From positions 1 through 58,851 of the IMG/VR virus record IMGVR_UViG_3300042477_000507: a DNA stretch of 58,851 nt. One strand, 5' to 3'. Numbering within the stretch: position 1 is the first letter of the stretch; each line of letters opens with the position of its first letter. Under the pieces are notes generated by a model. That model saw only the letters and a program-made list of their open reading frames with translations, was not told the origin of the DNA and ran no database searches. The translations under genes and the position numbers were made by a program. This document shows positions 35,051 through 56,742 of the stretch, piece by piece. This DNA is from a virus (lineage: Duplodnaviria > Caudoviricetes).

Positions 35051-35080
35051 TTGACAGGTTGTTTGATCTGATGCTACCTT
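35051..35080 (+). promoter_or_regulatory. sigma70-type promoter
   Basis: TTGACA-18-TACCTT with TG extension. Confidence 0.6.
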
Positions 35081-35105
35081 GCATCTGTTCAACACACAAG
35101 ACGGC

Positions 35106-35867
35106 ATGTCCGTTCATCAGAAGCTCATGCAGGCGCGTATCGCGCTTCAGGGCAAAAAACTCTCAAAAAGCGGTAAGAACAAATTCGCTGGATACAATTA
35201 CTTTGAACTTGGGGACTTCCTCCCGACTGTTCAAGAAATCTTTCTGTCGCTTGAATTGTCAGGTGTCGTTAGCTACGGCAAAGAAGAAGCCACGCTGACC
35301 ATCACCGATTGCAGCAACCCAGACGACTGCATCGAGATCTTCAGCCCCATGTCCAGCGCTGCTCTCAAGGGGGCGCATGAGATTCAGAACCTGGGCGCAG
35401 TGCAGACCTACCTCCGTCGCTACCTCTGGGTGACAGCCATGGAGATCGTTGAGCACGACGCCTTGGATGCTGTTCTGGGCAGCGATGGCGGCACCTCTGC
35501 ACCGAAGGCAGCTCCTGCAGCTCGCAAGCCCGTTGATGAGACACCCGGTGGTCTGCGAGCCAGCGAGGCGTTTGCACCTACCTCGGTCAACGAGAAGCTT
35601 GAAACCAAGTTGATGGACCTGGGCATCACGCAGTACGGAATCAAGACCGTGCTCACGATCACCGAATCACTCAGCCTCGCCGAAATCCCTGAAAACAAAG
35701 CGACGGCGCTGTTGAAAGCAGTGGGCAAAGATCACGTCAGGATGTTCAATCAGGGCAAGAACAGCAAGGGCGCTCAAATTATTCCTGAGCCCGTCAGCGA
35801 CAAGATCAATACCAAGTCGATTGACGATCTTGCAAAAGCTGCTGAAGACGCATTCGGGGACGACTGA
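35106..35867 (+). CDS. erf: ERF-family single-strand annealing protein
   Basis: KSGKNKFAGYNYFELGDFLP and Q.LGAVQTYLRRYL...D. Confidence 0.85.
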   Translation: MSVHQKLMQARIALQGKKLSKSGKNKFAGYNYFELGDFLPTVQEIFLSLELSGVVSYGKEEATLTITDCSNPDDCIEIFSPMSSAALKGAHEIQNLGAVQTYLRRYLWVTAMEIVEHDALDAVLGSDGGTSAPKAAPAARKPVDETPGGLRASEAFAPTSVNEKLETKLMDLGITQYGIKTVLTITESLSLAEIPENKATALLKAVGKDHVRMFNQGKNSKGAQIIPEPVSDKINTKSIDDLAKAAEDAFGDD

Positions 35868-39425: not shown

Positions 39426-40187
39426 ATGGCGCATCCCAAGTCAGGCTTCTACGTCAAAGACGACCACGAATACGTCTCCGTCAGCTCCGTTCTAGGCAGA
39501 ACGTCTGAGTTATTTGATCCCAGCAAAATAAAGGGTCTTGAAATCTGGCGACAGATGGAGCCTAACTGGGAAGACATCATGCAACGGGCGCAGCGCAGGG
39601 GAACGATCATTCACGCTGAAGTTGAAATGTCGTTCATGGGTGACGCAGAAAAACACAAAATGGATCATGCGACAATGGATGAAGTCATGAATTACAACAT
39701 TCATGAGTACATCACTTATCTCTCGCCCGTCCTTGACTTAATCAAAAAAGAAAACTTCAAAAACGAAGTCAGCGCTCCATCTTTCTTGATGGAAGAGGCT
39801 CTTTACTGCCACTTGGGCTATGCAGGAACCGCTGACTTGCGCCTGCACTGGGACGGTCAATACAGCATCTGGGACTGGAAGACAGTGCGCTCATACAAAG
39901 AAGAGGGCGTCAAGAAAAAAGCAAAGTCAATGTCGCATTACAAAAGCGCTGAAGTGCAAATTGCTGCATATGCACTCGCTCACAATCTTGCTGTAAAACG
40001 AGGCGAGCTTGACAATGAGATAACTCAGGGTGTAATCTGTGTTTGCTACGACTGGCGTGAACCTCATGTTCATGTCCTGAATAAGCAAGAGCTGAAAGCT
40101 CGTGCGCAAGAATTTATCGAGCGTTACAAAGCTTACTGCTCACTCGAAAACACCCAATTCCCAAGGCTTATTGAGCCTGAACTCTGA
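39426..40187 (+). CDS. PD-(D/E)XK exonuclease
   Basis: SVSSVL, RGT.IH, YAGTADL...IWDWKT, QIAAYA. Confidence 0.85.
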   Translation: MAHPKSGFYVKDDHEYVSVSSVLGRTSELFDPSKIKGLEIWRQMEPNWEDIMQRAQRRGTIIHAEVEMSFMGDAEKHKMDHATMDEVMNYNIHEYITYLSPVLDLIKKENFKNEVSAPSFLMEEALYCHLGYAGTADLRLHWDGQYSIWDWKTVRSYKEEGVKKKAKSMSHYKSAEVQIAAYALAHNLAVKRGELDNEITQGVICVCYDWREPHVHVLNKQELKARAQEFIERYKAYCSLENTQFPRLIEPEL

Positions 40188-41349: not shown

Positions 41350-42080
41350 AGGATCGCGGTGATATTTTCTATGGCGCCCGTCTCGTTGCTGATGCACGTC
41401 TTCATCTAGGCCCTTTGATCAATGGGGGCGACGGGGAATTATTCTTTGCGACGATGTGGAAAATTATCGACAGCAAAGTGTATTTGGGATACAAAACATT
41501 TGACAACAGAGACATAGTGATGAAAGGAATCAAAGATTTTATCTTTAACTTTCATCACGGACTAGGAATCAAGAAAGCAACTATCGCAACGTTTCTTGCT
41601 AATTGCGCAAAAGCGGCGATCAAAGACAAGACTCAAGCGCAATACGCATCACGTTTTACAAAATGGCTGGGCGAGCAGAATGAAGGTTTTGACTTCCCGC
41701 AAGAGTTCTTTGAATACATGCGGATTAAGTATTATATCAATAAGCGTTACACAAAAAAGAATCCAGACAAGTACAGAAGATTGCAAATTCTTGAAAGAAT
41801 CTACAATCAATACCCACAGCTTTTGCAAGAAGTTGGTGCGGGCAGAAAATACAAAGACATTTTTGATTGCGCAGAAGATCTGACAATTTGGGAGCGAAAG
41901 CGCACTGTGCGCCCTCTTGCTCTTTACAACAACCCAACAGTAAAGCAAACAGAAGAACTGGCGGAAAAGCTAAGTGTCAAACTCAGCAAGCTGAATCGAC
42001 GTGTTTTAATCGCTAAGCTCATAGAAATCTACAAACGCGACAAAGGGATTGATGACGGCAAACTTGTTGACAACACTTGA
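41343..42080 (+). CDS. hypothetical protein
   Basis: 245 aa ORF. Confidence 0.65.
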   Translation: MLKDRGDIFYGARLVADARLHLGPLINGGDGELFFATMWKIIDSKVYLGYKTFDNRDIVMKGIKDFIFNFHHGLGIKKATIATFLANCAKAAIKDKTQAQYASRFTKWLGEQNEGFDFPQEFFEYMRIKYYINKRYTKKNPDKYRRLQILERIYNQYPQLLQEVGAGRKYKDIFDCAEDLTIWERKRTVRPLALYNNPTVKQTEELAEKLSVKLSKLNRRVLIAKLIEIYKRDKGIDDGKLVDNT

Positions 42081-42591
42081 GCAATGCGCCGCTCAGTCCT
42101 ATTCATTCTTTGTCGCCGGCAAACCCGAGACACAGGGCTCCAAAAGCGCCTTTGGCCGCGCCTACACCGACCGTGAAGGCCGTCAGCGCGTTGCTGTGGC
42201 AATGGTGGAGCAGTCCAAGGGTCTCTACGCCTGGAGGGCTTCTATCGGGCGCATGGCGGCAATCACTCGCCCACGAAACTGGGAAACAAGTGGGCTATTT
42301 GTACTGTCAACATTATTTTACATGCCACGCCCTAAGTTGCATTTCAACAGCAGAGGCGAACTGAAGAGCAACGCCCCTCTGTTTCATTCCAATAAGGGCG
42401 ATGCAGACAAGCTGCTCAGGGCCTGCGGTGATGCACTAACAAAAATATGTTATGATGACGACGCTTTGATCGTTGCGGCTTCATCAATGAAGCTGTTTTG
42501 CGATCCGTCTGACGGCCCAGGCGTTCACATCAAGGTCACTCGCCTTGATGTGGAAGCTGCCACCACCATGACGCTTGCACTGAAGCCCTGA
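42049..42591 (+). CDS. rusA: RusA-like Holliday junction resolvase
   Basis: G.P.TQGSK, F.MPRP, DADKLLRA..DALT...DDDALIV. Confidence 0.85.
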   Translation: MMTANLLTTLEQCAAQSYSFFVAGKPETQGSKSAFGRAYTDREGRQRVAVAMVEQSKGLYAWRASIGRMAAITRPRNWETSGLFVLSTLFYMPRPKLHFNSRGELKSNAPLFHSNKGDADKLLRACGDALTKICYDDDALIVAASSMKLFCDPSDGPGVHIKVTRLDVEAATTMTLALKP

Positions 42592-43653: not shown

Positions 43654-43672
43654 ACATTCCCGTTACACGCAG

Positions 43673-43846: not shown

Positions 43847-43979
43847 AGAACAGAAGCGGCAAGATCGCTTGGAGTCTTGGTATGAACAAGACGGGCGCAG
43901 CGACAAAAGCCACCCCATGTACTCTCTCTACACTGGACTCGCTGACAAGTACATGAACAAGGAGCAAGACGATGTTTGA
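43830..43979 (+). CDS. hypothetical protein
   Basis: RQD.LE.WY..DGR....HP..SLYTGL. Confidence 0.6.
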   Translation: MVNPVEEQKRQDRLESWYEQDGRSDKSHPMYSLYTGLADKYMNKEQDDV

Positions 43980-44124
43980 TTTTGATGATCTCGAAAAACT
44001 TTTTCGTGAATACTGGGAGGGCTCTTATCCCAATGCGCCCGCAAATAAGCAAGCGGCTGCATCGCATGTCGCTTTCGCTCATTTCGTGCTACTAAAGGCA
44101 AGCGAGGCGAAGAGTGAGGGTTGA
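43972..44124 (+). CDS. hypothetical protein (50 aa)
   Basis: Manual read LF.EYW..SYP.AP.N.QA..SH.AF. Confidence 0.55.
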   Translation: MFDFDDLEKLFREYWEGSYPNAPANKQAAASHVAFAHFVLLKASEAKSEG

Positions 44125-45501: not shown

Positions 45502-45677
45502 TGTTAAACAGACGGTTATGACTGACAGTAACAAGCCATGGCTTCAGGCGCCATGTAAGGAGAACAATTGGAAATGGCGTGTTTACGGAATCGGCATGGT
45601 GTGGGATCATGCACAGGAGTGGCAAGCCAAATGGAAGCTCCACTGCTTACAAGTCTCTCAAGGTATTTCCGACGACG

Positions 45678-46565
45678 ATGGCCCGTGACGCGATTCAGAG
45701 CTACCTCAATGAGATAGGGCGATACCCCCTGCTCACAAAAACACAGGAGGTCATGCTTGGTACGCAGATTCAGGCTTGGATGACAATTAAAGAAAAAGAT
45801 GAGTCAGTATACACAGAAGAAGAAAAAAAGATAGCAAGAAGCGGCAAAAGGGCGAGAGAGAAATTTATCAAATGCAACCTGAGGTTAGTCGTAAACATTG
45901 CAAGAAAATACACCAATCGCTGTCATAGTCTTGACCTGATGGATTTGGTTCAGGAGGGGAATGTTGGATTGGCTAGGGCGGTAGAAAAATTCGATCCGAC
46001 TCGTGGGTATGCAATGAGTACATACGCCTACTGGTGGATCAGACAGGCGATACAACGGTCCATGCAATTTTCCGATCTTACCATTCGCCTGCCAATTGGT
46101 GTTCATGATGCAACTTTTAGAATTAACAAGGCGGTCGAAATACTAACAAAGGGGCTAGGGCGCGAACCAACGATTAATGAAATATCAGAGTCATCCAATC
46201 TTTCAGTAGATGAAATTAAGAACGCATTAACAGCCCCGCGCGCCAACACAAGTCTCGATAAACAGGCGAACGATACGGAATCAAGCTCATTTTTAATTGA
46301 ATTAATCGCTGATCAAGATAATTCAAATACAATTGAACAAGTTCATCGAGCATCAATAATAGATGATATTTACTCAGCGATAGAAACTTACCTTGACGAA
46401 AAAACTAAATTTGTTGTTCTTGAACGAATAAAAGATCCTCCGACCCCTTGGAAGATAATATGTGAAGCAACGGGGCTATCAAGAGGACGATTGCAAAAAA
46501 TAGAACAGAATGGCTTGCGTCGTTGTGCGATGATTTTAAGTGTCAAAAAAGATCTACAGGTCTAA
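45678..46565 (+). CDS. RNA polymerase sigma factor, RpoD/group-2 type (no region 1.1)
   Basis: YLNEIGRYPLLT..QE..L, NLRLVV.IA.KY, DLVQEG..GL.RAVEKFDPTRGY..STYAYWWIRQAI.R, IRLP. Confidence 0.92.
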   Translation: MARDAIQSYLNEIGRYPLLTKTQEVMLGTQIQAWMTIKEKDESVYTEEEKKIARSGKRAREKFIKCNLRLVVNIARKYTNRCHSLDLMDLVQEGNVGLARAVEKFDPTRGYAMSTYAYWWIRQAIQRSMQFSDLTIRLPIGVHDATFRINKAVEILTKGLGREPTINEISESSNLSVDEIKNALTAPRANTSLDKQANDTESSSFLIELIADQDNSNTIEQVHRASIIDDIYSAIETYLDEKTKFVVLERIKDPPTPWKIICEATGLSRGRLQKIEQNGLRRCAMILSVKKDLQV

Positions 46566-46566: not shown

Positions 46567-47637
46567 TCAATAATCCCAGACTACTTTTGGGCGCCCTGCC
46601 CTGATTCCAGTGTGAATGAATTTTTTTGGCGCACCTTTTCCAGTGCTGTAGGGCCAATTCTTGATGCACCATTCTTGCAACTTATAAATATCAACACCCT
46701 CGATGTACCAGTCAACTGCACCAACGTTCGGTGCGTTGTAAAGATGCTCTGATTGACTTGCGCCGCCAACCGATTTGTTGATATGAGGTGGGCGATAGCC
46801 ACTTGTGATGATTATTGGCTTGCCACCAAAGGCAGTACGTGCGCGCTCAAGAAAAGCTGCAAGCTCTGCTGCTGTATCAAGCTGATATTGATGCTGAAAC
46901 CTGCGCTCCTCCTTGTCTAAGGCAAATTCACCAAGTCTGATGTGCGGGGTGATCCGAGACGAGAAAGAGCTACTAGGGCGCAGCTTGCTGGTCTCTGGGT
47001 CGGCGACAACAAAATCTTTGGCCCATAACGCTCCCTCTGCCCTGCGGCGCCTCAGGAGGCCCGCCTCAACGTTGCTGCCTGGGTTGCGATACAACTCCAT
47101 TGCTGCAGGTACCTGTCTCCAGTCTTTTTCACGCAAACGCTTGCTGATCGTCTCGAAGCCAGCGCTCCCGTAAAATCCCGTGCCTAAATTGTAGGCAAAA
47201 CTGATGAGCGCACCTTGTTGATTTATGCCCATTGCATTCCAAAAAGGAATTGTTGCACGCAGCTTTTCGGCGATTCGCTCAATCTCAGTCTTTAGTAATT
47301 GATCGGCGTCAATAACTGTAATTTTGTCACCTCGCTGCACCTTGCGCCCATCTGAATAGCGAGTTGTACCATATCCAATTGTCGCAACATCCCAGCCATG
47401 CAATGGATCTGGATAGGCGCTCAGATGACAACCCTCGAACTCCTTGATCAGCTTCATTGCTGAGCTGTAATCAGCGAAAGCAGATGGCTTCTGTTCTGGT
47501 GAAGCACGAAAAAGCTCAAGAAACTCTTTTTGCTGTTCCTTTGTTAGCAGCGCCCAAGCATAGTTCCAAGCAGCAATTTGATGCGACTCTGGATACTGCT
47601 TGTCGGTCCAACGGGCGGCGGAAAGAAAGTCACTCAT
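46567..47637 (-). CDS. endolysin: lysozyme (GH24-like) fused to M15-type peptidase
   Basis: IKEFEG...AY.D...TIGYG.T, ALISFAYNLG, GL.RRR.AE; then ITSGYRP...VGGA..SEHLY...AVD...FIH. Confidence 0.9.
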   Translation of the reverse strand: MSDFLSAARWTDKQYPESHQIAAWNYAWALLTKEQQKEFLELFRASPEQKPSAFADYSSAMKLIKEFEGCHLSAYPDPLHGWDVATIGYGTTRYSDGRKVQRGDKITVIDADQLLKTEIERIAEKLRATIPFWNAMGINQQGALISFAYNLGTGFYGSAGFETISKRLREKDWRQVPAAMELYRNPGSNVEAGLLRRRRAEGALWAKDFVVADPETSKLRPSSSFSSRITPHIRLGEFALDKEERRFQHQYQLDTAAELAAFLERARTAFGGKPIIITSGYRPPHINKSVGGASQSEHLYNAPNVGAVDWYIEGVDIYKLQEWCIKNWPYSTGKGAPKKFIHTGIRAGRPKVVWDY

Positions 47638-48815: not shown

Positions 48816-49133
48816 CTAGCCCCAGGGGACTCCTGCGGCTTTTGTCGGCGCTTGCTGTTCGTCAATCTGAGCTTGCAGGGCCGCCTCGATCTCAGCGATT
48901 TTCTCAGGGCCGCCCAACTTGTCCTGCACCCATCCCAGTACGACCTCTTTTGTGAGATCAGCGTAGGGGATCATGGTGGCAGGATCTGGCTGCTCCAGTC
49001 CGACACTGCCATAGGCGGAACTGCCGTAGATGCCGTTGTTAGCCGAAATCGTATAATGAACCGTAAAAATTGCACCATCAGAGGTGTGGCGCTCCATATT
49101 TGCCACATTCCATTCAAATACGGTGTTGGCCAT
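48816..49133 (-). CDS. tail-fibre-associated protein
   Basis: W.VANMER...DG...TVHY...YGSVGL...IPYADLT.E.V.GWV...GVPW, a family typically adjacent to such fibres. Confidence 0.75.
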   Translation of the reverse strand: MANTVFEWNVANMERHTSDGAIFTVHYTISANNGIYGSSAYGSVGLEQPDPATMIPYADLTKEVVLGWVQDKLGGPEKIAEIEAALQAQIDEQQAPTKAAGVPWG

Positions 49134-49155
49134 GCGCAAGGGAAGCTTTCGCTTC

Positions 49156-50010
49156 TCATAGTACAGGCATTTCGTATTCTTGGGTGGTGTTGCAGTAGTG
49201 CTTGAAGATCACCTCGCTGGTATTTCCGGCCCATGCAGCGACCTGCGGTACGGGAATCCCTGCTTCGATCCAGCGACTGATAGCGGTGTGGCGACAATCA
49301 TACGGACGATAGACGTGCGAAATTAAGCCGACACGCTTTATTGGAAGTAGTTTTTTGCGAAAATAGCTCTGAAAGGCAAGACGATCCCATGGAAATATAA
49401 AATCATTGCTATGTGGAACTGAGTCAAGAATTTCTTTGCAGCGCTTATTCAGTGGAACCCAGCGCTTTTTATTTGTTTTTGTGCTATTTTTTAAGCCATG
49501 CGTCAACGTATAGTTCTGATGCACAAGAATTTTGCCATCCTTAATGTCCTTCCACATAAGCGCTCTGACTTCGCCAGTTCGCATTGCTGTTTGAAGCATG
49601 AACTCTGCATAGTATCCCCAATTTACGTTTTGATATGTAAACTTGGCCCCGAGAACGCCTAGTACAATCTCAACTTCATTTCTGGGTATTACGATAATTT
49701 CATTGTCACGTTGAGGCGCTTTTGGCATCTTGAAACTTGCGAGGGGGTTTCGCTCAAGAAGCGCTACGTCCTCTTGTGCCGCCCATTTGCACATTGTTTT
49801 AAGGTACATTGCAACTCGGCGAGACATGAGAACTGGTTTTTGTCCCAGCACCCAAATCATCGCTTGGCGCGCCTGCAATGGATCTTGCACGGGACAGCCT
49901 TTCAGCCATTTCGTAACTTGGCGATAGTCAGAGGTCAGGCTGGTTGGACAGAGCGAGATGGATCGCTCTTGCAGGAACGCATCCCAAAGTTCGAACAGGG
50001 TCGGTGGCAC
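49156..50010 (-). CDS. tyrosine recombinase (short, no arm-binding domain)
   Basis: TAMRTGEV.AL.W.DI, K..TKT, RPYDCRHT, W.GN, KHY: R-K-(Y)xxR-(N)-Y catalytic set. Confidence 0.92.
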   Translation of the reverse strand: MPPTLFELWDAFLQERSISLCPTSLTSDYRQVTKWLKGCPVQDPLQARQAMIWVLGQKPVLMSRRVAMYLKTMCKWAAQEDVALLERNPLASFKMPKAPQRDNEIIVIPRNEVEIVLGVLGAKFTYQNVNWGYYAEFMLQTAMRTGEVRALMWKDIKDGKILVHQNYTLTHGLKNSTKTNKKRWVPLNKRCKEILDSVPHSNDFIFPWDRLAFQSYFRKKLLPIKRVGLISHVYRPYDCRHTAISRWIEAGIPVPQVAAWAGNTSEVIFKHYCNTTQEYEMPVL

Positions 50011-50021
50011 AAAAAGAAAAA

Positions 50022-50041
50022 AGTGACATCTCTGTCACTTT
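50022..50041. promoter_or_regulatory. perfect palindrome upstream of recombinase
   Basis: AAGTGACA-TCTC-TGTCACTT. Confidence 0.55.
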
Positions 50042-50073
50042 AATTCATATTTCAGGCGCAGAAGGGTCAAAGA

Positions 50074-50271
50074 CTAGTAACGAGTGCCGGTGTAGCTGCA
50101 GCTTGGGCAATGCACCCCATACTGCGGTGGCCAACTTGTAAGGCAAACTGATGGGTTGGAGTCCATCAGCTCCTGTTGGCACTCAGGGCAAGCGATCCCG
50201 TTGGGATGGGGCTGGGTGTTTAGCTGGAACATGCCCAGCGCCTGCTGATTGTGTTGATCGAGGGTCTGCAT
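50074..50271 (-). CDS. 65-aa zinc-ribbon ORF bracketed by two putative recombination sites
   Basis: CPEC...CPSC; sites at 50062-50076 and 50272-50286. Confidence 0.7.
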   Translation of the reverse strand: MQTLDQHNQQALGMFQLNTQPHPNGIACPECQQELMDSNPSVCLTSWPPQYGVHCPSCSYTGTRY

Positions 50272-50288
50272 TAGAGAAGGGGACTCGT

Positions 50289-53168
50289 CTAGTTGGCTTC
50301 GAGTGCAGCAACACGAGCCTTCAGTGATTCGATTTCACCAATGGCTTCCTGCAACGCAGCCGTCAGCAGCGGCACCAGCTTGGACTGGTCGATGCCTTGG
50401 TAGACGGGGTTGCCATCATCATCCACTGCATCTTTGGAGCCCGTGACCGCTTCAGGAACTACAGCTTGAGTTTCGTGAGCGATGAAGCCGTCAACAGTGT
50501 GGCTGGGGTCAGCCTTGAAGTTGAAGCGGCTAGGCTTCAGTTGCCGAAGGCGGGTGATGCCGTCAGTGACTGCGGTGACGTTTTCCTTAAGGCGGTAGTC
50601 GGAAGAGGTGTTGTAAGAGGTGGCCGTTGTCGAGACACTAACTGAACCGACTTCTGTTTCGTTGCGGTAAAAACGAATAGCGTTTCGGGCATCGGTATCA
50701 TCAAAGGTTTGGTTAATATCCAGCACCGAAACAGTGCTTTTACCGTTGTAAACCCAGCGACCAGTATCACCCGCGTACGCAGAGGATATTGTGTTTGTAG
50801 CAAGCGTACTAATGGTCCCGCCAATATACAAACTTCCATCACTAGAAATCCTCATCCGCTCCGTCGGAGAACTCGCCCCATCCGCAGTAGTGGAGAACAC
50901 TAGGCGGCCTGGGTAGCTAGATCCAGCAGTCCAAGTCCCTCCATCCCTTTGTGCCTGTATCCACGCAGCATTTACATGCGTGGCATCGCCAAACATGATA
51001 TAGCCGAGGTCTTCTGTTGAAGTTGGTCCATTTGTAGTTGTGCAGCAACGCAACACACCAGGACCAGTGGTACCGCTGTATCCTTGGAGAAGGAGTGTTG
51101 TATTGCTAGACGTGGAAGACGTACCAACTAAGAGGCGCTTCGATGTATCAATGGTGACTGCTGCGCTGCCGTTTTGAATAATGTCAAAGCCGCCAGCGTA
51201 GTTAGTTCCAATGGCGGCGTTCTGTGTGGTGGAACCACCGCGCAACTCCATGTGGCGAGTGCCGTCGCCAACACGAATAATTGGCGCCGAAGAATTAAGG
51301 ACTTCTAGTGTGGTGTTAACTGTAGAAGTGCCAATCCCTACGTTGCCTGCGGAGTTGATTACCAACAAAGGTGTTGTGAACGTTGTCCCCCCTGCAGCGG
51401 TAGATGGCGTGATCTCAAGTGCATTATCTACATTTTGTTGAGCGCCTATTTTCCAGTTATATTTTGTGCCTGTTCCATAAAAGATAGCCGCACCAGTATC
51501 GCCAGCATCATTTGATCCAATACTTACAACTGTTGCGCCGCCAGCAACGTGTAACTTTGAGCCAGGCGAACTAGTCCCTATGCCTACGTTGCCTGAGGAG
51601 TCGATGCGGGCGCGTTCGGAGGGAGTTGTGGCCGTGCCATTAGAAGACACGGCGAGTACAAGCGCCCCGCCATTATTGGCACCCGCATTAGGGTTAAGTG
51701 CTTGAATGGCCGCAACTGCTTCGCTGCCGCCAAAAGTATTGGAACAGAAAAACTGCATCTGAGCAATGTTGCCAGCATTTGATGCAGACTGGTTCCTCAG
51801 CGTGAGAAGATTTGAGGTAGTTGAACTACCTGTGGCACCGGCAATGTCTAGTGTCGTGCTAGGACTCGTAGTGCCCACCCCTAATCCAGTGGGCGTAAGG
51901 CGCATCATCTCGGTTGGGTCCGAGGCGCTATTTGTAGTCTTTATTGCAAACGCAAGGCTTCCAATGCGATGATCGCTGTTGAGGCCGTAAGCGCCAATCC
52001 TCGCCACTTCTCTGGTGCCAAGCCAGGAAGAAGTATTGTCTGAATAGTATTTAAGTTGAGCCCCCTCTTGACTGGCATTTAGGTAGCGACCTGACCGAAT
52101 TCCTAAAGCATTTGCCGCATCGGTTGTTCCATTAGCAATTTCGAATTTATCGCTAGGCGAACTAGTCCCCACGCCTACGAGCCCTGCCGAGGTGATGCGC
52201 AGGCGTTCCTGTTCATTTGTTTGAATAGTGAACGGAATTGCTGAGCGCGTTTGGATAGACGCAAGTGATCCAGTGTTGTAGAACTCACAACCGACGCCGC
52301 TGTTTCCGGTTAAGCGAAGCGTAGCCGTTGTGCTTCTTTGGATTTCAACACCACTGCCATTACCAAATCCGGCAAACGAAGATCCAATATTGATATTCCC
52401 ATTCGCATCAACAAACAACCTGCCAGACCCACCAGTGCTGATGGCTACTTGGTCTGCGCCGGGGGAGTAGATGCCGGTGTTGGTGTCGCCAGTGAATGCA
52501 ATGGAAGGTGCAGCAGCACTACCACCTGCAGCGCTAAAAATGCCAGTGGTTTGAACTGTCTGGCTGCCGAAATCAGGACTAATCTTGGTGCCAGCAATGG
52601 CGGCGCTTGAATTAATATCTGCGTTGACGATGGTATCATTTCTAATCATCGTACTGGTCACTGTTTCACTATCACCAGTAGTGACAATGGTGCCATTCAC
52701 ATCAGGCAGCGTGATCGTCTTGTCGGACGCAACTGACGCCGGGGCCTGCAGGGCGATGTGATTGGTACCATTTGCAGTGGTCTCGCGGAAGCGCACCTGC
52801 TGCTGGTTGTCCATCACCAGCGCACCAGTCATCACGTCGCCGTTCACGTCTACGAACGTGCCGCTCTCGCTGCGCCACGCTGATCCATCCCAGATCTTGA
52901 GCACGTAGGTACCGCCGGTGGTGTCGAGCCATTGCTCACCCACGCTGTTGCCCGTTGCACCGCCGCTAGCAGGCGAAACGTTGGGTGCCGTAGTGCCAAC
53001 ATGCACCGGGCCTACTTTTACCAGGCCACCAGTGCTGTCCTTGAAGAACAGACCAGGGCTTGCACTATTTGTATTGATTGCGGGACGACCATCAACAAGT
53101 CCCGCAGGAAGGGGGCGCTTGTTTGCGGTGCTGCTGCGGAGAAGTTGCAGGGGATTAACGCTGGACAT
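50289..53168 (-). CDS. modular tail fibre with C-terminal intramolecular chaperone (peptidase S74)
   Basis: Repeated ER.RI...G.VG.GT junctions; SDYRLKEN...GFIAHE.Q.VVPEAV...LVPLL...coiled coil. Confidence 0.9.
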   Translation of the reverse strand: MSSVNPLQLLRSSTANKRPLPAGLVDGRPAINTNSASPGLFFKDSTGGLVKVGPVHVGTTAPNVSPASGGATGNSVGEQWLDTTGGTYVLKIWDGSAWRSESGTFVDVNGDVMTGALVMDNQQQVRFRETTANGTNHIALQAPASVASDKTITLPDVNGTIVTTGDSETVTSTMIRNDTIVNADINSSAAIAGTKISPDFGSQTVQTTGIFSAAGGSAAAPSIAFTGDTNTGIYSPGADQVAISTGGSGRLFVDANGNINIGSSFAGFGNGSGVEIQRSTTATLRLTGNSGVGCEFYNTGSLASIQTRSAIPFTIQTNEQERLRITSAGLVGVGTSSPSDKFEIANGTTDAANALGIRSGRYLNASQEGAQLKYYSDNTSSWLGTREVARIGAYGLNSDHRIGSLAFAIKTTNSASDPTEMMRLTPTGLGVGTTSPSTTLDIAGATGSSTTSNLLTLRNQSASNAGNIAQMQFFCSNTFGGSEAVAAIQALNPNAGANNGGALVLAVSSNGTATTPSERARIDSSGNVGIGTSSPGSKLHVAGGATVVSIGSNDAGDTGAAIFYGTGTKYNWKIGAQQNVDNALEITPSTAAGGTTFTTPLLVINSAGNVGIGTSTVNTTLEVLNSSAPIIRVGDGTRHMELRGGSTTQNAAIGTNYAGGFDIIQNGSAAVTIDTSKRLLVGTSSTSSNTTLLLQGYSGTTGPGVLRCCTTTNGPTSTEDLGYIMFGDATHVNAAWIQAQRDGGTWTAGSSYPGRLVFSTTADGASSPTERMRISSDGSLYIGGTISTLATNTISSAYAGDTGRWVYNGKSTVSVLDINQTFDDTDARNAIRFYRNETEVGSVSVSTTATSYNTSSDYRLKENVTAVTDGITRLRQLKPSRFNFKADPSHTVDGFIAHETQAVVPEAVTGSKDAVDDDGNPVYQGIDQSKLVPLLTAALQEAIGEIESLKARVAALEAN
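50888..52447. repeat. seven in-frame TAGN-N7-WCTN putative recombination sites in tail fibre
   Basis: 50888, 51116, 51326, 51572, 51869, 52163, 52433; spacings 228/210/246/297/294/270. Confidence 0.7.
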
Positions 53169-53205: not shown

Positions 53206-56200
53206 TTAGTAAGTGCCGTCATCTAGATCGCTAGTCAAGGCCAAAGTACCGGAGGCGTTGGGCAGAGACACAGTGTGATCGGCGGTTGGATCAACTGCTG
53301 AGAGAGTTGTTTCATATGCGTCCTCGGTACTTCCTTCAAAAACAAGAGCAGCAGTTGACGACAGCGCAATGTTGCCAGTCATCGTGCCGCCACTTGTCAC
53401 GAGGGCGTCATAAGTAGCCCACTCAAGACCTGTTGCGGTTCCACTGTTAGCTTTAAGGATAAAGCCATTTGTGCCAACAGCAAGCTTGGATAGCACGTTG
53501 GTGCCAGATCCTGCGATCAAATCGCCTTTCACATAACTGGTAAGTCCAGTACCGCCAACGGTTGTTGCAAGCGTGCCGCTGGTGATATTCGTGGCAATAC
53601 GGCATTCGCTACTTACTTCTTCAATTGCCGCTTGGACATTTGTGCTAGAAATCTGGCCGGCGGGCGTAAACGAAACCTGTGTAGCGACCTGAGCGATATA
53701 GGCGTCAGATGATTCAATCCGCACCCATGCAGTGCCCGTAGAAAGAATTAGGTCAGGCGGCAGAAGTCCAACTGTCGGTGCCGGACTCGTACCAGTACCC
53801 GCGTTGCTTACAATGACAAAGTAGTTTTGGTTTGTAGCGCTAGCAGCGGGCAGCGGGTTGCCGACGCTAAGGCCAAGCGAAGAACCATCTGCTGTGACTG
53901 ACGCAATTTGGTTTGTATTTGCGTCGTAAGTACCTGCAAAAATAACAGTACCTGCAGTAATACCAACCGGCTGCCAAACGTTACCGTCCCACATGTAGAC
54001 GGTGCGCTCTAGCGGATTTAAGAAGAACTGACCGATAAAATCAGCGGATGGAACCGTAGAACCGATCTGCGCCGTAGAGTAATCAGCAAGTTTGGCGGCA
54101 GTAATGCTTTCATTGGCTAGTGCAGATGAGCCGAAGGTGCCCGTTGCAATCTTGCTCGCATCCAAGCTCGGGATGTCGGCGGCGAGCAGTGAAGCCCCAG
54201 CGGTTACATGACCTTGCGCGTCAAATGTAATCTTTGTGGCTGTACCAGCAGTAACACTATTGCTGTGGTTTAATGTTCCCGTGCTAATTGATAAACCCGT
54301 GCCGGGAACAACGGCACCCTTGGTTGAGCTTGTTGCGTCAGGCAAGTCAGCAGGGACAAGCGCGCGGAAAGTTGGTGATGCTGCGTCTCCCGTAGTTGGA
54401 CCAGCGAATACGCGATTCGCCGATTGAGTGTCGAGCGTTGTTGTAATTTCAGCGCTATAAGGGTCTGGATAGGCGACGGAGAAAGTAAGTGGTGAAGAAT
54501 CAACAAATGTCAGCGAGGCAAGCGAAGCCTGGCGCAGCCAGGCAATACCGTCCCAGGTATATTCAACCGCTGTGGCTGTATTGATCCATTGTTGACCAAT
54601 AAAGGCGCCAGAACCAGATGGGTTTGCGTCAGCAACAATCGCGGCAGAGTTGTCTGCCATCTTTGCTGCAGTTACCGCATTATTAACTATTTTTGTTGTA
54701 GTGACCGAATCGGTGGCGAGCTTTGCGTTGGTTACAACGCCATCGCCAATCGTTGCAGCAAATGAACCAGTACCCGAGCCTGTTACATCACCGGTGAGCG
54801 TGATCGTCTGATCACCTGTATTAGTACCAGAGCTAGTGCCGCTAAACGTGCCGCTGAAGGTTCCATTTTGGGTTGCCAGCGTGCCCAGGCCCAGGGTGTT
54901 GCGCTGAGCAGCAGCATCAGCATCGTCGATCAACGCACGGCCCGCCGCAGTCAGCGTGATCTCTTCGACTGCCCCGGCGCCGGCAGACGAACGACCCAGC
55001 ACTCGATCAGTGCTGCTGACGTTCTGCAGCTTGTCGTAAGTGACTGCACTCGAGGCGAGCTTGGCTGTGGTAACAGCGCCTGCCCCGAGAGCGGTTGCAT
55101 CAACAGCTCCGGAGGCTAGCTTTGCTGTCGTTACAGCGCCAGTGGCAAGCTTTGCAGCAGTGACGGCTGCATCAACCAATTCGGCGGTGTTAACCGCGCC
55201 ATCGCCGATCTGCCCAGCCGTAATCGAGTTGGCTGCAATCTTGGCACCAGGAATTGAACCGTCAGCAAGATTGAGCTTGCCAGCAGCGATGGTTGCATCA
55301 GCAATTTTGGCGTTAGTGACTGCTCCATCGCCAAGCTTGGCTGTAGTGACAGCATCATCTGCGAGCTTCGCGCTCGTGACAGCAAGATTGAGAATGGCAC
55401 CAGAATCAACAGCGTTATCCGCAAGCTCGGAGGCGCCAATAGCATTAGGTGCGACTTGAGATGCGGTGATTGAATCAGTCGCAATCTTTGCTGAAGTTAC
55501 TGCGCCATCAGCGATTTTGGTAGTAGTAACGGCGGAGTCAGCAAGCTCGCTTGCTTGAACTGCACCCGCCGCGATTTGTACGCTCGTGACCGAATCGTTA
55601 ACGAGTTTGGCGCCAGGTACTGAGCCATCTGCTAGGTTCAGCTTGCCTGCGCTGATTGAGGCATTGGCGATCTTGGCATCAGTAACCGAAAGATCGCCAA
55701 GTTTCGTCGTTGTTATAGCGCCGTTGGCAATCTTGGCCTCTGTAACTGCAAGACCCTGGATGGCTGCAGTATCAACAGCATTGTCAGCAAGCTCAGAAGC
55801 ACCAACGGCATTAGGTGCAATCTGATCCGTAGTGATCGAATCAGTAGCAATCTTGCCAGCGGTTACGGCGCCACTGCCAAGCTTGTCTGTGGTAACAGAA
55901 CCATCTGCCAGCTCGCTCGTGCCAACAGCAGAAGCCCCAATCTGCGTGGCAGTAATAGAATCAGTAGCAATCTTCGCTCCAGGTACAGATCCATTGGCAA
56001 GATTTAACTTGCTATAGGCAATTGTTGCTTCTGCAATTTTGTCATTAGTGACTGCAAGATCGCCTAGTTTTGCAGTTGTGACAGCACCTCCAGCAAGCTT
56101 GGCATCGGTGACAGCAAGTGCCTGAATTGCGGCTGTATCAACTGCGTTATCGGCAAGCTCGGAAGCGCCTACCGCACTCGGCGCGATTTGGGTGGCTGTG

Positions 56201-56742
56201 ACGCTATCAGTTGCAAGCTTGGCGGTTGTAACCGCACCATCAGCTATCTTGACCGTGCTGATACTGCCGTCTGCATAGGCTGCAGTACCGAGTGCGGTAA
56301 CTTTGGCGGTAGTGACTGCACCATCGGCCAGCTTGCCTGTGGTGACTTGCAGATCGCCGATGCCGGCTAAAACTTGCTGATAGGCGCTACCATTGAAAAT
56401 CTGAAGATTGCTGGTACTGGTATTAAAGTAGCCGCGTCCTTCAAAGTTATTGGTTGTCGGAGTAGTGGTTTGAACAGCAATAGAGCTGTCGGCAGCAAGC
56501 TTTGTCGCAGTAATGGCGCCATCCGCAAGCGCAGCAGAGCCAAGTTTTGTGACGCTGGTTTGATCAAGCTTGGCGAGGTCAATCTCACCGTTATCAACTA
56601 GGTCAATGCCTGCCGCTACCAGATCCTTTGCGGTAACTTTCTTGGTTTCGCTCGCAGATATATCAGCAATAGGAAGTACGTCAGTGGCTGAAACGCCTGC
56701 TTTGGACAGCGCGTTTAATTGAGTAATACGCTGGTCGGCCAC
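53206..56742 (-). CDS. long tail fibre/shaft protein with 10-aa repeats
   Basis: 1178 aa, dozens of (L/I)ADGAVTTAK-type repeats; MADQRITQL N-terminus. Confidence 0.8.
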   Translation of the reverse strand: MADQRITQLNALSKAGVSATDVLPIADISASETKKVTAKDLVAAGIDLVDNGEIDLAKLDQTSVTKLGSAALADGAITATKLAADSSIAVQTTTPTTNNFEGRGYFNTSTSNLQIFNGSAYQQVLAGIGDLQVTTGKLADGAVTTAKVTALGTAAYADGSISTVKIADGAVTTAKLATDSVTATQIAPSAVGASELADNAVDTAAIQALAVTDAKLAGGAVTTAKLGDLAVTNDKIAEATIAYSKLNLANGSVPGAKIATDSITATQIGASAVGTSELADGSVTTDKLGSGAVTAGKIATDSITTDQIAPNAVGASELADNAVDTAAIQGLAVTEAKIANGAITTTKLGDLSVTDAKIANASISAGKLNLADGSVPGAKLVNDSVTSVQIAAGAVQASELADSAVTTTKIADGAVTSAKIATDSITASQVAPNAIGASELADNAVDSGAILNLAVTSAKLADDAVTTAKLGDGAVTNAKIADATIAAGKLNLADGSIPGAKIAANSITAGQIGDGAVNTAELVDAAVTAAKLATGAVTTAKLASGAVDATALGAGAVTTAKLASSAVTYDKLQNVSSTDRVLGRSSAGAGAVEEITLTAAGRALIDDADAAAQRNTLGLGTLATQNGTFSGTFSGTSSGTNTGDQTITLTGDVTGSGTGSFAATIGDGVVTNAKLATDSVTTTKIVNNAVTAAKMADNSAAIVADANPSGSGAFIGQQWINTATAVEYTWDGIAWLRQASLASLTFVDSSPLTFSVAYPDPYSAEITTTLDTQSANRVFAGPTTGDAASPTFRALVPADLPDATSSTKGAVVPGTGLSISTGTLNHSNSVTAGTATKITFDAQGHVTAGASLLAADIPSLDASKIATGTFGSSALANESITAAKLADYSTAQIGSTVPSADFIGQFFLNPLERTVYMWDGNVWQPVGITAGTVIFAGTYDANTNQIASVTADGSSLGLSVGNPLPAASATNQNYFVIVSNAGTGTSPAPTVGLLPPDLILSTGTAWVRIESSDAYIAQVATQVSFTPAGQISSTNVQAAIEEVSSECRIATNITSGTLATTVGGTGLTSYVKGDLIAGSGTNVLSKLAVGTNGFILKANSGTATGLEWATYDALVTSGGTMTGNIALSSTAALVFEGSTEDAYETTLSAVDPTADHTVSLPNASGTLALTSDLDDGTY

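What the first reader, a model, noticed from the sequence alone, without database searches (positions are those of the whole stretch)
49156..53168. Tyrosine recombinase next to a tail fibre built from six in-frame modules delimited by seven quasi-palindromic TAG(T/G/C)-N7-(A/T)CT sites
Seen in sequence (coding strand; plus-strand start coordinate in brackets): GTA GCC ATC AGC ACT (52433), GTA GGC GTG GGG ACT (52163), TTA GGG GTG GGC ACT (51869), GTA GGC ATA GGG ACT (51572), GTA GGG ATT GGC ACT (51326), TTA GTT GGT ACG TCT (51116), CTA GTG TTC TCC ACT (50888). Four peptide contexts (VAIST, V/LGxGT, LVGTS, LVFST) give the same DNA pattern. All seven use an NTA codon and a WCT codon, so the wobble bases are fixed, which points to a DNA-level constraint. 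Spacings of 270, 294, 297, 246, 210 and 228 bp are all multiples of 3, and the 70-99 aa modules between sites are largely dissimilar. The best site (50888) is a perfect TAGT-N7-ACTA. A 284-aa recombinase with no arm-binding domain lies 280 bp downstream, separating the fibre from its accessory gene. Established: tyrosine recombinases act on inverted half-sites around 6-8 bp spacers (R64 shufflon Rci, integron IntI). Inference: the recombinase excises, inserts or reorders receptor-binding modules in frame. This would be a direct-repeat, integron-like fibre diversifier, unlike invertible cassettes (Mu Gin, P1 Cin) or DGRs. The N7 spacers differ, so the enzyme would have to tolerate heterology.
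Basis: partly seen in the sequence, partly recalled or inferred. Interest (0 to 1): 0.92.

Follow-up and report, generated by a model that had tools for sequence, protein, structure and literature searches.

The report
Cyanophage tail fibre with shuffled modules
The seven "sites" are the conserved joints between structural domains of a cyanophage tail fibre; related phages swap, gain and lose the domains at these joints, but the neighbouring integrase is probably not what does it.

Summary
The seven TAG(B)-N7-(W)CT strings are real, share one codon phase and exceed chance: 8 on the fibre's coding strand against 1.0 expected from synonymous-codon shuffles (0 of 20000 reach 7). They are the most conserved codons of the peptide linker (RLVFSTT..ERMRI..SxGNVGIGTSSP) that starts each trimeric beta-helix domain of a fibre ending in an S74 chaperone.

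In related phages, blocks of 93-98% identity begin and end at these linkers. Two relatives join linker 2 directly to the module after linker 4. Metagenome contigs break at sites 3, 5 and 7.

The recombinase part is not supported.
- Linker DNA is conserved over 45-77 nt, not 14.
- Breakpoints also fall at linker parts without the pattern, and site 1 is never a breakpoint.
- The same linker DNA occurs in genomes with no tyrosine recombinase: 2 complete podovirus isolates and 3 near-complete IMG/VR records.
- Only 10 of 52 fibres with the exact site-7 16-mer have the integrase nearby.
- Dyad symmetry is weak and there is no hairpin.

The window encodes Erf, an exonuclease and RusA. Best reading: recombination between similar linker DNA at domain boundaries, a cyanophage counterpart of T-even adhesin motif shuffling. 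The integrase is an optional cassette, probably for lysogeny.

The parts
50289..53168 (-). Tail fibre gene, 959 aa: conserved N-terminal part, about seven divergent beta-helix modules, and a C-terminal S74 chaperone.
   Evidence: ORF. PHROG tail-fibre families, best phrog_18345 at E 1.7e-104. Peptidase_S74 at aa 856-909. PDB sequence matches to Bdellovibrio MAT fibres 8OND, 8OML and 8ON4.
52390..53168 (-). Conserved N-terminal part (gene nt 1-779), presumably the virion-attachment end. It contains site 1 (52434-52447) and ends at the GNINIG linker.
   Evidence: DNA identity is 68-92% in most of the 34 relatives. The L003/L004 block covers nt 1-779 at 91.7%, and the L006 block covers nt 461-771 at 97.4%. 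Both blocks end at nt 771-779, about 36 nt after site 1. Contigs in X1, X5 and X6 diverge at 52440 and 52496.
52152..52208 (-). Linker 2 (ERLRITSAGLVGVGTSSPS), containing site 2 (52164-52177).
   Evidence: Gene nt 961-1017 are 86-96% identical in L003, L004, L006, L015, L021, L030 and L032 (79% in L033). The piece nt 970-1014 is 93% identical in the integrase-less podovirus 7B11-B. In L006 and L032 this linker is joined to the module after linker 4. Loose ends and joints lie at 52208 in X4 and X6.
51858..51914 (-). Linker 3 (EMMRLTPTGLGVGTTSPS), containing site 3 (51870-51883).
   Evidence: Peptide and codons. X4 contig pieces 51327-51883 and 51861-52205 meet here. A piece at gene nt 1286-1325 is 85% identical in 7B11-B.
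51546..51619 (-). Linker 4 (ERARIDSSGNVGIGTSSPGSKLHV), containing site 4 (51573-51586).
   Evidence: Blocks begin at gene nt 1550-1552 in L006 and L032, but true identity to this window starts at the 3' edge of site 4. The linker aligns to the SERMRIDTSGNLGLGT repeats of the 8OND crystal chain. X4 joints lie at 51619.
51324..51369 (-). Linker 5 (LVINSAGNVGIGTS), containing site 5 (51327-51340). This is the cleanest junction.
   Evidence: The upstream blocks of L006, L031 and L032 end exactly after ACT. The downstream block of L014/L016 (96.8%, gene nt 1820-2321) begins at GTA. X4 pieces 50892-51341 (depth 454) and 51327-51883 (depth 19) meet here.
51105..51158 (-). Linker 6 (VTIDTSKRLLVGTSSTSS), containing site 6 (51117-51130).
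   Evidence: Blocks of 94-96% identity in L030, L034 and L035 start 0-8 nt upstream of the TAG. The site is one codon out of register with the VGIGT repeat.
50847..50912 (-). Linker 7 (GRLVFSTTADGASSPTERMRI), containing site 7 (50889-50902).
   Evidence: Identity is 100% over 64 nt in L015 and 94.8% over 77 nt in 7B11-B. Codon-level conservation appears in 17 instances and in 90 IMG/VR instances. Block ends fall inside site 7 in L014, L034 and L035, or at nt 2322 in L030. Loose ends lie at 50847 in X4 and X6, and the depth bin reaches 8225 in X4.
50442..50603 (-). C-terminal intramolecular chaperone domain (Peptidase_S74).
   Evidence: PF13884, E 7e-10, aa 856-909.
50074..50271 (-). 65-aa Cys-rich ORF between the fibre and the integrase.
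   Evidence: ORF. It is 100% identical in L014/L016 and 83% in L015/L033, where no integrase follows it. Only weak zinc-ribbon hits below the cut-off.
50020..50041 (-). Terminator-like hairpin with a T run, directly upstream of the integrase start codon.
   Evidence: Nine-pair stem with a 4-nt loop followed by a T-rich tail.
49156..50010 (-). Tyrosine recombinase, 284 aa, without an arm-binding domain. It is an optional cassette.
   Evidence: PF00589 scores 46.2 bits against a cut-off of 27.1; phrog_1 integrase, E 4.2e-36. Homologues 61-81% identical sit next to the fibre in S-LBS1, L004, L005, L006, L014, L016, L017 and L034. The gene is absent from the same junction in L009, L013, L015, L020, L026, L030, L031 and L033.
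48816..49139 (-). DUF7936 gene, the usual downstream partner of this fibre type.
   Evidence: PF25590, E 7e-35. It follows the fibre in 44 of 52 IMG/VR loci with at least 4 kb downstream and in podoviruses 7B11-B, S-RIP1, DSL-LC07 and S-CBP1.
35079..35867 (+). Erf-like single-strand annealing protein.
   Evidence: PF04404 scores 31 bits against a cut-off of 25; phrog_155, E 7e-20.
39426..40187 (+). Exonuclease, the likely partner of Erf.
   Evidence: phrog_298, E 4.8e-20.
42049..42591 (+). RusA-like Holliday-junction resolvase.
   Evidence: PF05866 scores 34.6 bits against a cut-off of 22.8; phrog_140, E 5.2e-20.

Best explanation
**What the gene is.** The ORF is a trimeric beta-helix tail fibre. 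It has a conserved N-terminal part, about seven tandem and strongly diverged beta-helix modules of 70-100 aa, and a C-terminal S74 chaperone.

**What the sites are.** The seven sites are the best-conserved codons of the inter-module linker (RLVFSTT - ADGASSPT - ERMRI - xSxGN - VGIGT - SSP). This linker begins each beta-helix domain.

**What happens at them.** In the gene pool of freshwater and marine Synechococcus phages, both siphoviruses and T7-like podoviruses, these linkers stay nearly identical as DNA over 45-77 nt while the modules between them differ. Modules are exchanged between phages, and gained or lost within a fibre, in frame, with the junctions inside the linkers (shown).

**Most likely mechanism (inferred).** Recombination or single-strand annealing occurs between similar linker DNA. 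It happens between co-infecting genomes or between paralogous linkers of one genome. The phage's own Erf, exonuclease and RusA set, or host recombination, would carry it out. Chimeras survive because the linkers are domain boundaries.

**The recombinase (inferred).** It is a separately mobile, optional cassette inserted between the fibre and its DUF7936 partner. It is most likely a simple integrase for lysogeny; its attachment site is still unknown.
For: **Structure.**
- S74 domain.
- The linker aligns three times, once per beta-helix domain, to the Bd2133 crystal chain 8OND. Domain limits are taken from passages of PMC10769870.
- Modules are paralogous.

**Mosaicism at the linkers.**
- Nine high-identity blocks (91.7-98.4%) have ends at gene nt 771-779, 1594-1596, 1842-1845, 1820, 2032-2039, about 2278 and 2322.
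- L006 and L032 join linker 2 to the module after linker 4, within a 15-nt stretch the two linkers share. They therefore lack modules m2 and m3.
- In a lake metagenome the module between sites 7 and 5 has contig depth 454, against 23 and 19 for its neighbours. Bins holding linkers reach depths of 1492-9822.

**Length of the conserved DNA.**
- Linker 7 is identical in 64 of 64 nt in L015 and in 73 of 77 nt in podovirus 7B11-B. That phage's only DNA similarity to this fibre is five linker pieces plus the C-terminus.
- The codon profile of 90 IMG/VR instances has two peaks, LVFST and A..PTERMRI.

**Independence from the integrase.**

**Recombination genes in the window.**

**Precedents.**
- Rad52-like phage recombinases make mosaics by homology-driven exchange that tolerates divergence (abstract of PMC3945230).
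Against: - Where junctions can be resolved, the shared identity is short: 15 nt for the linker-2/linker-4 join and about 15-20 nt at site 5. This is at the low end for homologous recombination and could equally come from a site-specific or microhomology process.
- In the unbiased LVFSTTADG sample, the five site codons are more fixed than the next three. The major codon takes 58-81% (L as TTA+CTA 65%), against 42-52%. Neutral exchange alone does not predict that.
- The pattern is slightly, but not significantly, commoner in integrase-bearing loci: 17 of 19 against 15 of 20.
- When present, the integrase always sits within about 1.4 kb of the fibre's end. However, loci were fetched around the fibre, which biases this.
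- No attP, attB or prophage copy was found, so the lysogeny role is unproven.
- No recombination experiment or raw-read evidence is available.
Confidence: 0.75

Rival explanations
1. The fibre-adjacent arm-less tyrosine recombinase cuts and rejoins at the TAG-N7-CT cores. It excises, inserts or exchanges modules in frame, either within one genome or in trans between co-infecting genomes, where matching sites would have matching spacers.
For: - A tyrosine recombinase lies 278 nt from the fibre. Homologues 61-81% identical keep that neighbourhood in 8 loci.
- Junctions map to within a few nt of the cores at sites 4, 5, 6 and 7.
- The five core codons of site 7 are the most fixed part of the 5' half of that linker.
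- A phage tyrosine recombinase acting on short asymmetric 11-bp sites in a receptor-binding gene has precedent in the Rin shufflon (abstract and passages of PMC6109161).
Against: - The same linker DNA and mosaic pattern occur without any PF00589 gene, in 2 complete isolates and in 0 of 5 IMG/VR records.
- Only 10 of 52 fibres with the exact site-7 16-mer have the integrase nearby.
- There is no link between pattern and integrase, p = 0.41.
- Conservation spans 45-77 nt, including parts without the pattern.
- Breakpoints fall at GNINIG and at the end of ERMRI, and none falls at site 1.
- Dyad symmetry is weak and there is no single-strand hairpin.
- No copy of the pattern lies next to the integrase gene.
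- A terminator-like hairpin separates the integrase from the fibre operon.
Confidence: 0.04
2. The fixed wobble bases serve another function at the DNA or RNA level that has nothing to do with recombination. One candidate is a conserved cluster of rare codons (GTA, TTA, CTA, ATA, GGG) that slows translation at each domain boundary so the trimer can fold. Another is out-of-frame TAG stops. Under this reading, mosaic boundaries sit at linkers only because chimeras joined elsewhere do not fold.
For: - Codon choice at the motif departs strongly from the genes' own usage: GTA 20 of 24 against 18%, and GTG 73% against 16%, TCC 58% against 11%.
- The linkers are domain starts.
- The idea that conserved rare codons at domain boundaries aid folding is recalled from general knowledge and was not checked here.
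Against: - A general IMG/VR sample of 223 GNVGIGT sites shows no such preference (GTA 27%, ACT 30%). Any constraint is therefore lineage-specific, not a property of the peptide.
- Many fixed linker codons are common G/C-ending ones (GTG, TTC, TCC, CCG, GAG), not rare ones.
- High-GC phage S-CBP1 encodes the same peptides with other codons.
Confidence: 0.08
3. Module gain and loss within a genome arise from replication slippage or microhomology-mediated illegitimate joining between paralogous linkers, with no dedicated recombinase. The DNA similarity of linkers between phages reflects only recent common descent plus a slower amino-acid clock.
For: - The linker-2/linker-4 join lies in a 15-nt perfect repeat 591 nt apart.
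- Synonymous identity of the linkers to relatives is only moderately above that of the N-terminal domain: about 0.5-0.67 against about 0.45 per 10-aa window.
- Several N-terminal codons are as fixed as the site codons, for example A116 in 24 of 25 and R99 in 23 of 25.
Against: - Slippage cannot explain modules exchanged between different phages, including between siphoviruses and podoviruses, with only the linkers shared.
- It also cannot explain the 20-fold depth differences between adjacent modules in one metagenome.
Confidence: 0.08

Closest known systems
T-even phage adhesins gp38 and gp37: hypervariable segments separated by conserved glycine-rich motifs, with exchanges at the motifs
   Same: Variable receptor-binding segments alternate with short, highly conserved Gly-rich motifs. 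[quoted passage not shown] 1996 and 1998). The result is in-frame chimeras drawn from a shared pool.
   Different: The fold differs: here a trimeric beta-helix shaft with an S74 chaperone, not the monomeric gp38 tip. The hosts are cyanobacteria. The same linker DNA is shared between siphoviruses and T7-like podoviruses and between lake and sea samples. No crosses have been done here.
Bdellovibrio MAT (mosaic adhesive trimeric) fibres and phage S74 tail fibres (PDB 8OND, 8OML, 8ON4)
   Same: The repeated SERMRIxxSGN(V/L)G(I/L)GT motif opens each beta-helix domain, and the S74 chaperone closes the protein. The authors describe chimeric tips whose C-termini have been exchanged (passages of PMC10769870).
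   Different: Those are chromosomal genes of a predatory bacterium. The sequence match is weak (E 3e-8 for the whole protein). DNA-level linker conservation was not the subject of that paper, as far as the passages I read show.
Rin shufflon of bifidobacterial prophages: a phage tyrosine invertase acting on 11-bp rix sites in the receptor-binding protein locus
   Same: A tyrosine-family recombinase gene lies beside a receptor-binding gene that carries several short repeated sites at the borders of dissimilar modules (abstract and passages of PMC6109161).
   Different: Rin inverts alternative C-terminal cassettes that lie in both orientations behind one constant N-terminal part, and inversions were seen in prophage and virion sequences. 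Here all sites are direct repeats inside one continuous ORF, no alternative cassettes lie on the other strand, and the recombinase is dispensable for the pattern.
Synechococcus phage S-LBS1 (MG271909)
   Same: Closest isolate. It has the same order, fibre then 284-aa integrase then DUF7936-like gene. Its integrase is 80% identical, and it shares the linker codon forms.
   Different: Its fibre is 568 aa as annotated, so it has fewer modules. Its authors read the integrase as a lysogeny gene and proposed two att sites inside the portal and helicase genes, without demonstrating lysogens (passages of PMC6157547).
R64 shufflon (Rci/sfx), integrons (IntI/attI/attC), and the phiCh1 Int1 tail-fibre inversion
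   Same: In each, a tyrosine recombinase acts on several short sites to rearrange coding or cassette DNA. These are recalled from general knowledge and were not checked in any call.
   Different: Shufflon and phiCh1 sites are inverted and give inversions. attC sites are long folded hairpins, and integron cassettes are whole genes inserted at an attI next to intI. None of these features is present here.

Membership tests
Tyrosine recombinase (Phage_integrase, PF00589) | Catalytic-domain profile match above the curated cut-off | tested here: met
   46.2 bits against 27.1, residues 134-276. phrog_1 integrase, E 4.2e-36.
Tyrosine recombinase (Phage_integrase, PF00589) | Catalytic residues R-K-H-R-H/W-Y | tested here: inconclusive
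   Read by eye from an alignment of 10 homologues. The Arg of AMRTGE, a Lys in STKTNKKR, the Arg of YDCRH and the Tyr of FKHY are invariant. The two usual His positions read Tyr and Asn in all 10. There was no reference alignment or structure, and no PDB sequence match.
Temperate-phage integration module (int plus attP/attB) | An attP next to int that matches a host site, often a tRNA gene, or prophage copies in host genomes | tested here: inconclusive
   The window has no tRNA or tRNA-like Rfam match. Only 63 nt and 16 nt of non-coding DNA flank int. The genome-contig scan gave 3 MAG contigs and none from a cyanobacterium. One relative, L005, has a tRNA-Arg gene directly upstream of int.
Shufflon / invertible tail-fibre cassette (Rci, Rin, Gin, Cin, Min) | Crossover sites in inverted orientation flanking alternative C-terminal coding segments | tested here: not met
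   All 7 sites are on the coding strand in one phase. The only opposite-strand match is the palindromic site 7 itself. The fibre is one continuous 959-aa ORF.
Integron-like cassette system (IntI, attI, attC) | A primary site beside the integrase gene, and cassette sites that fold as imperfect hairpins in single-stranded DNA | tested here: not met
   No pattern match lies between 47845 and 50518. Single-strand folding z-scores of the 7 linker regions run from -1.23 to +0.59. The modules are parts of one ORF, not promoterless genes.
Site-specific recombination system in general | Presence of the sites is tied to presence of the recombinase | tested here: not met
   PF00589 is absent from 3 of 5 complete podovirus isolate genomes, two of which (7B11-B, DSL-LC07) carry the linker DNA. 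It is absent from 5 of 5 IMG/VR records. Only 10 of 52 exact site-7 loci have the integrase. Fisher p = 0.41.
Trimeric beta-helix tail fibre with S74 intramolecular chaperone (MAT-like) | C-terminal Peptidase_S74 domain and a repeated SERMRI..SGNVGIGT motif opening each beta-helix domain | tested here: met
   PF13884, E 7e-10. Three aligned repeats in chain 8OND_A. PHROG tail-fibre families. No structure of this protein was predicted.
Conserved-motif recombination of phage adhesins (T-even type) | Variable segments separated by conserved motifs, with exchange boundaries in or next to the motifs | tested here: met
   (block ends and the linker-2/linker-4 join). (contig breaks at sites 3, 5 and 7, and unequal module depths).
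Conserved-motif recombination of phage adhesins (T-even type) | Exchange depends on homologous-recombination functions | not testable with these tools
   The only evidence is the presence of Erf, exonuclease and RusA genes in the window.

The most novel reading that the evidence does not exclude
The short tyrosine recombinase beside the fibre does act on the linker cores. It would catalyse in-frame crossing-over between matching linkers of co-infecting phages, where spacers match, and occasionally between paralogous linkers. Integrase-less phages would then inherit and keep the sites as passive substrates for recombinases supplied in trans. This would be a direct-repeat, site-specific shuffler of receptor-binding domains, unlike invertible cassettes or DGRs. 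A less radical reading is also open, at roughly 0.3: the linkers are held at synonymous sites by selection as shared recombination joints for phage annealing proteins.
Probability: 0.04. Interest if true: 0.9.

Novelty: new member of a known kind. Interest (0 to 1): 0.4.

Why it matters
Tail fibres set phage host range. This locus gives an unusually clear natural picture of how a fibre is rebuilt domain by domain.

The joints are short linker sequences shared, almost letter for letter, by siphoviruses and T7-like podoviruses of Synechococcus from lakes and from the sea. The domains between the joints are swapped, added or dropped. In one lake metagenome, adjacent domains of the same fibre differ 20-fold in abundance.

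This makes the rules of domain exchange in cyanophage fibres testable, and it suggests natural splice points for building chimeric fibres in laboratory cyanophages.

It also removes a tempting but probably wrong reading: that a phage integron-like system drives this. And it flags that the S-LBS1-type integrase still has no known target.

Tried and rejected
- **Reads for deletions or circles.** All 24 runs offered are kept as assembled contigs only. I laid X1, X4, X5 and X6 (4 of 24). The probable source run X1 shows no joint, but contigs drop rare variants. Rare excision products or circles could therefore not be tested either way. The many 'skips' in X4 have short sides (20-54 nt) at 90% likeness, and I read them as other fibres with other module orders, not as deletions in this phage.
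- **Integration site.** The genome-contig scan with the integrase gave 3 MAG contigs labelled Methylacidiphilales, Hyphomonadaceae and Ignavibacteria, and none from a cyanobacterium. The window has no tRNA and no Rfam family.
- **Naming the integrase.** It has no PDB sequence relative. NCBIfam gave only a sub-threshold XerD hit.
- **Per-residue synonymous identity** from tblastn is noisy, because paralogous linkers align to one another. I use it only to show that site codons are high but not unique.
- **Integrase alignment.** In one search my script picked the wrong ORFs for the two podovirus rows (L165, L166). Those rows are not integrases and were ignored.
- **Literature.** The search for the peptide strings was swamped by MRI-related words, and none of the 15 listed papers held NVGIGT, GIGTTSP or VGIGTTSP. 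Searches found general work on fibre mosaicism and the Rin shufflon, but nothing on these cyanophage linkers. That is not proof that none exists. Supplementary files of papers were closed and were not consulted.

Full report
**Context.** The window is an IMG/VR virus record of 58,851 bp, linear and about 85% complete. Its nearest isolate is the freshwater Synechococcus siphovirus S-LBS1, which has the same local gene order: tail fibre, 284-aa integrase, small conserved gene. On the minus strand the window carries, in order:
- a 1178-aa repeat-rich fibre (53206-56742);
- the 959-aa fibre of the finding (50289-53168);
- a 65-aa Cys-rich ORF (50074-50271);
- a terminator-like hairpin (50020-50041);
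- the tyrosine recombinase (49156-50010; PF00589 and phrog_1);
- a DUF7936 gene (48816-49139);
- three small ORFs and an endolysin (46567-47637).

All seven strings exist in one codon phase.
- The pattern is not enriched in the window as a whole: 28 matches against 26 expected.
- Eight of the 28 lie on the fibre's coding strand.
- Shuffling synonymous codons within the fibre gives 1.0 +/- 0.97 matches and never 7 in 20000 trials.
- Of 36 [VL]xxx[TS] positions, 8 combine NTA and WCT codons, and 7 of these are the sites.

**What the sites are.** They are the most conserved codons of a peptide linker that recurs along the protein: RLVFSTT, then ADGASSPT, then ERMRI, then xSxGN, then VGIGT, then SSP.
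- Sites 2-5 are the VGIGT strand.
- Site 6 is one codon out of that register.
- Sites 1 and 7 (VAIST, LVFST) are the earlier strand of the same linker. The later parts of those two linkers (GNINIG, SLYIGG) lack the DNA pattern.
- The modules between linkers are divergent paralogues. For example, m2 against m3 is 33% identical over 101 aa, E 1.6e-12.
- The fibre ends in a Peptidase_S74 chaperone.
- Its only solved relatives by sequence are the Bdellovibrio 'mosaic adhesive trimeric' fibres. In chain 8OND_A the linker aligns three times. Passages of PMC10769870 place beta-helix domains at those positions.

The linkers are therefore domain starts of a trimeric beta-helix shaft.

**The DNA-level constraint is real but wider than the sites.**
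- In 34 IMG/VR relatives the motif keeps GTA (20 of 24 Val), TTA or CTA (13 of 21 Leu) and ACT (31 of 42 Thr). The same ORFs use these codons at 18%, 23% and 30% elsewhere. Whole five-codon forms recur while the preceding codon varies.
- This is lineage-specific. A general sample of 223 GNVGIGT sites from 120 IMG/VR stretches shows GTA at 27% and ACT at 30%.
- For linker 7, 17 instances share nearly all synonymous positions across about 57 nt.
- In a sample drawn by a degenerate LVFSTTADG scan (the 80 listed of 120 stretches), 46 of 91 instances carry the exact site-7 16-mer.
- In that sample, codon fixation has two peaks. One is LVFST: GTG 73% against 16% background, TTC 81% against 33%, TCC 58% against 11%, ACT 62% against 33%. 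The other is A..PTERMRI: GCG 64% against 15%, CCG 67% against 21%, GAG 85% against 40%, CGG 61% against 12%, AGG 55% against 13%. Fixation dips at TADG.
- Among 350 four- or six-fold positions of the fibre, 10 of the 13 scorable site codons rank in the top 51. Codons elsewhere are just as fixed, for example A116 in 24 of 25 and R99 in 23 of 25.

**The modules really are reassorted at the linkers.**
- blastn of the fibre against the 34 relatives gives isolated blocks of 93-98% identity: gene nt 461-771 and 1550-1845 (L006), 1552-1842 (L032), 1596-1845 (L031), 1820-2321 (L014/L016), and 2032/2035/2039-2321 (L034, L030, L035). L003/L004 share nt 1-779 at 91.7%.
- Base-level views place the block ends as follows: exactly after the ACT of site 5 in three loci; at the GTA of site 5 in L014; 0-8 nt before site 6 in three loci; inside site 7 in L014, L034 and L035; and at the end of ERMRI in L030.
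- L006 and L032 carry the window's linker 2 fused to the sequence that follows its linker 4. The switch lies within a 15-nt stretch the two linkers share, of which 6 nt are inside the site and 9 nt outside. Relative to the window they lack modules m2 and m3.
- Site 1 is never a boundary. The blocks that cover it end about 36 nt further on, in GNINIG, and one starts at nt 461 in the N-terminal part.

**Independent support from other samples.**
- In run X4 the contig pieces are 50629-50906, 50892-51341, 51327-51883 and 51861-52205. They meet at sites 7, 5 and 3 and at the start of linker 2.
- The piece between sites 7 and 5 has depth 454, against 23 and 19 for its neighbours.
- Bins containing linkers reach depths of 1492-9822, against tens elsewhere.
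- Loose ends cluster at linker edges (50847, 51600, 52208, 52440, 52496) in X1, X4, X5 and X6.
- These are assembled contigs, so they show presence but not rare events.
- Eleven of the 34 related IMG/VR contigs stop within 200 nt after the matched part of the fibre. I read this as assembly breaking on the same mosaicism.

**The recombinase is not needed for any of this.**
- It is optional at this junction. It is present in S-LBS1, L004, L005, L006, L014, L016, L017 and L034, and in the last two it lies after DUF7936. It is absent from L009, L013, L015, L020, L026, L030, L031 and L033.
- L015 and L033 keep the fibre, 65-aa ORF and DUF7936 order without it.
- Whole-record searches found no PF00589 gene in 5 of 5 such IMG/VR records. 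Two are 100% complete and one is 94% complete.
- PF00589 is also absent from the complete genomes of podoviruses 7B11-B, S-RIP1 and DSL-LC07. S-CBP1 and S-CBP42 have one more than 11 kb from the fibre.
- 7B11-B, a marine T7-like phage, carries the same codon forms at three linkers. Its only DNA similarity to this fibre is five linker pieces (85-95% identical) plus the C-terminal end.
It lies in the LVFSTT frame in 121 of 124 matches. Of 52 matches with at least 4 kb downstream, 10 have the integrase and 44 have DUF7936.
- The sites lack the anatomy of known tyrosine-recombinase cores. The arms are 2-4 nt, and 5-10 of 17 positions pair in a 35-nt frame. There is no single-strand hairpin and no copy beside the integrase gene.

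**Mechanism proposed.**
- The window encodes an Erf-like annealing protein (35079-35867), an exonuclease (39426-40187) and a RusA resolvase (42049-42591).
- Rad52-like phage recombinases generate mosaics by homology-driven exchange that tolerates divergence (abstract of PMC3945230).
- I infer that linkers of 45-77 nt and 85-100% identity serve as the homology for exchange between co-infecting phages. Paralogous linkers would serve for unequal exchange or annealing within a genome. Only joins at domain boundaries yield working fibres.
- The shallow divergence of linkers beside deeply diverged modules is what a recombining pool under diversifying selection on the modules would produce. Whether there is also direct selection on synonymous sites, to keep the joints compatible, is open. 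The extra fixation of the LVFST core codons hints at it.
- The exchange at linkers is shown. The enzymology is inferred.

**The integrase itself.**
- Ten homologues keep the Arg, Lys, Arg and Tyr expected of the family, while the two usual His positions read Tyr and Asn. This was read by eye.
- It has its own upstream hairpin and promoter-like elements, and in L005 a tRNA-Arg gene sits directly upstream.
- The S-LBS1 authors read it as a lysogeny gene and did not demonstrate lysogens (passages of PMC6157547).
- I found no attP, attB or prophage copy. Its role as an integrase for lysogeny is the default reading and is not a finding.

**Comparison and novelty.**
- The system works like the T-even adhesins, where conserved Gly-rich motifs separate hypervariable segments and exchanges fall in or near the motifs (passages of PMC3157838).
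- It belongs structurally with S74 and MAT-type fibres.
- It is not a shufflon, whose sites are inverted, as in the tyrosine-recombinase Rin system (PMC6109161).
- It is not integron-like.
- I rate it a new member of a known kind: a clear cyanophage case of linker-mediated domain shuffling, notable because the same linker DNA crosses phage families and habitats.
- The searches turned up no description of these linkers. This does not show that none exists.

**Verdict.** Interest is 0.4.

Noticed in passing
L005:7070-7143: A complete tRNA-Arg(ACG) gene lies between the fibre and the integrase in one relative whose integrase is 81% identical. It may mark that integrase's attachment region. No tRNA is present in the window itself.
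   Followed up: partly
window 50011-50078 (minus strand); also L004, L006, L014 and L157 upstream of int: A recurring short motif starts at or just after the preceding stop codon and contains a -35-like hexamer (TAGTC..TTGAC type). It precedes the integrase gene in several relatives. A related TAGTC..CCTTC string follows the fibre stop codon. It could be a phage promoter or another intergenic signal.
   Followed up: no
L157, L158, L159: MAG contigs labelled Methylacidiphilales, Hyphomonadaceae and Ignavibacteria carry integrases 75-80% identical; L157 and L158 also carry DUF7936, and L158 also carries the endolysin. They are probably cyanophage contigs binned into unrelated MAGs. Two of them begin 67-111 nt upstream of the integrase.
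   Followed up: partly
window 53206-56742 (minus strand) and L003/L004: The upstream 1178-aa repeat-rich fibre is 94% identical in L003/L004. The 959-aa fibre next to it shares only its first 779 nt (91.7%) with them. In L004 the DUF7936 protein is 94% identical but the integrase only 80%, so the mosaic boundaries extend around the integrase as well.
   Followed up: partly
window 50074-50271 (minus strand): The 65-aa Cys-rich ORF between the fibre and the integrase is 100% identical in L014/L016, whose integrase is only 69% identical. It is 83% identical in L015/L033, which have no integrase. Its function is unknown.
   Followed up: no
window 45579-46565 (plus strand): The phage encodes a sigma-70 family factor (regions 1.2, 2 and 3 detected). 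The gene is convergent with the endolysin gene at the boundary of the late genes.
   Followed up: no
window 40804-45258 (plus strand): A cluster of nucleotide-metabolism genes: dNMP kinase, RusA, ThyX and a dCTP deaminase-like gene.
   Followed up: no
window 49156-50010 (minus strand): In this integrase and 9 homologues, the two positions where the family usually has His read Tyr (YDCRH) and Asn (WAGN). Both are conserved across 61-81% identity. This is an unusual catalytic set if my by-eye alignment is right.
   Followed up: partly
L003-L036 (table): Eleven of the 34 related IMG/VR contigs end within 200 nt after the matched part of the fibre. This suggests that assemblers routinely break on this mosaic gene.
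   Followed up: partly
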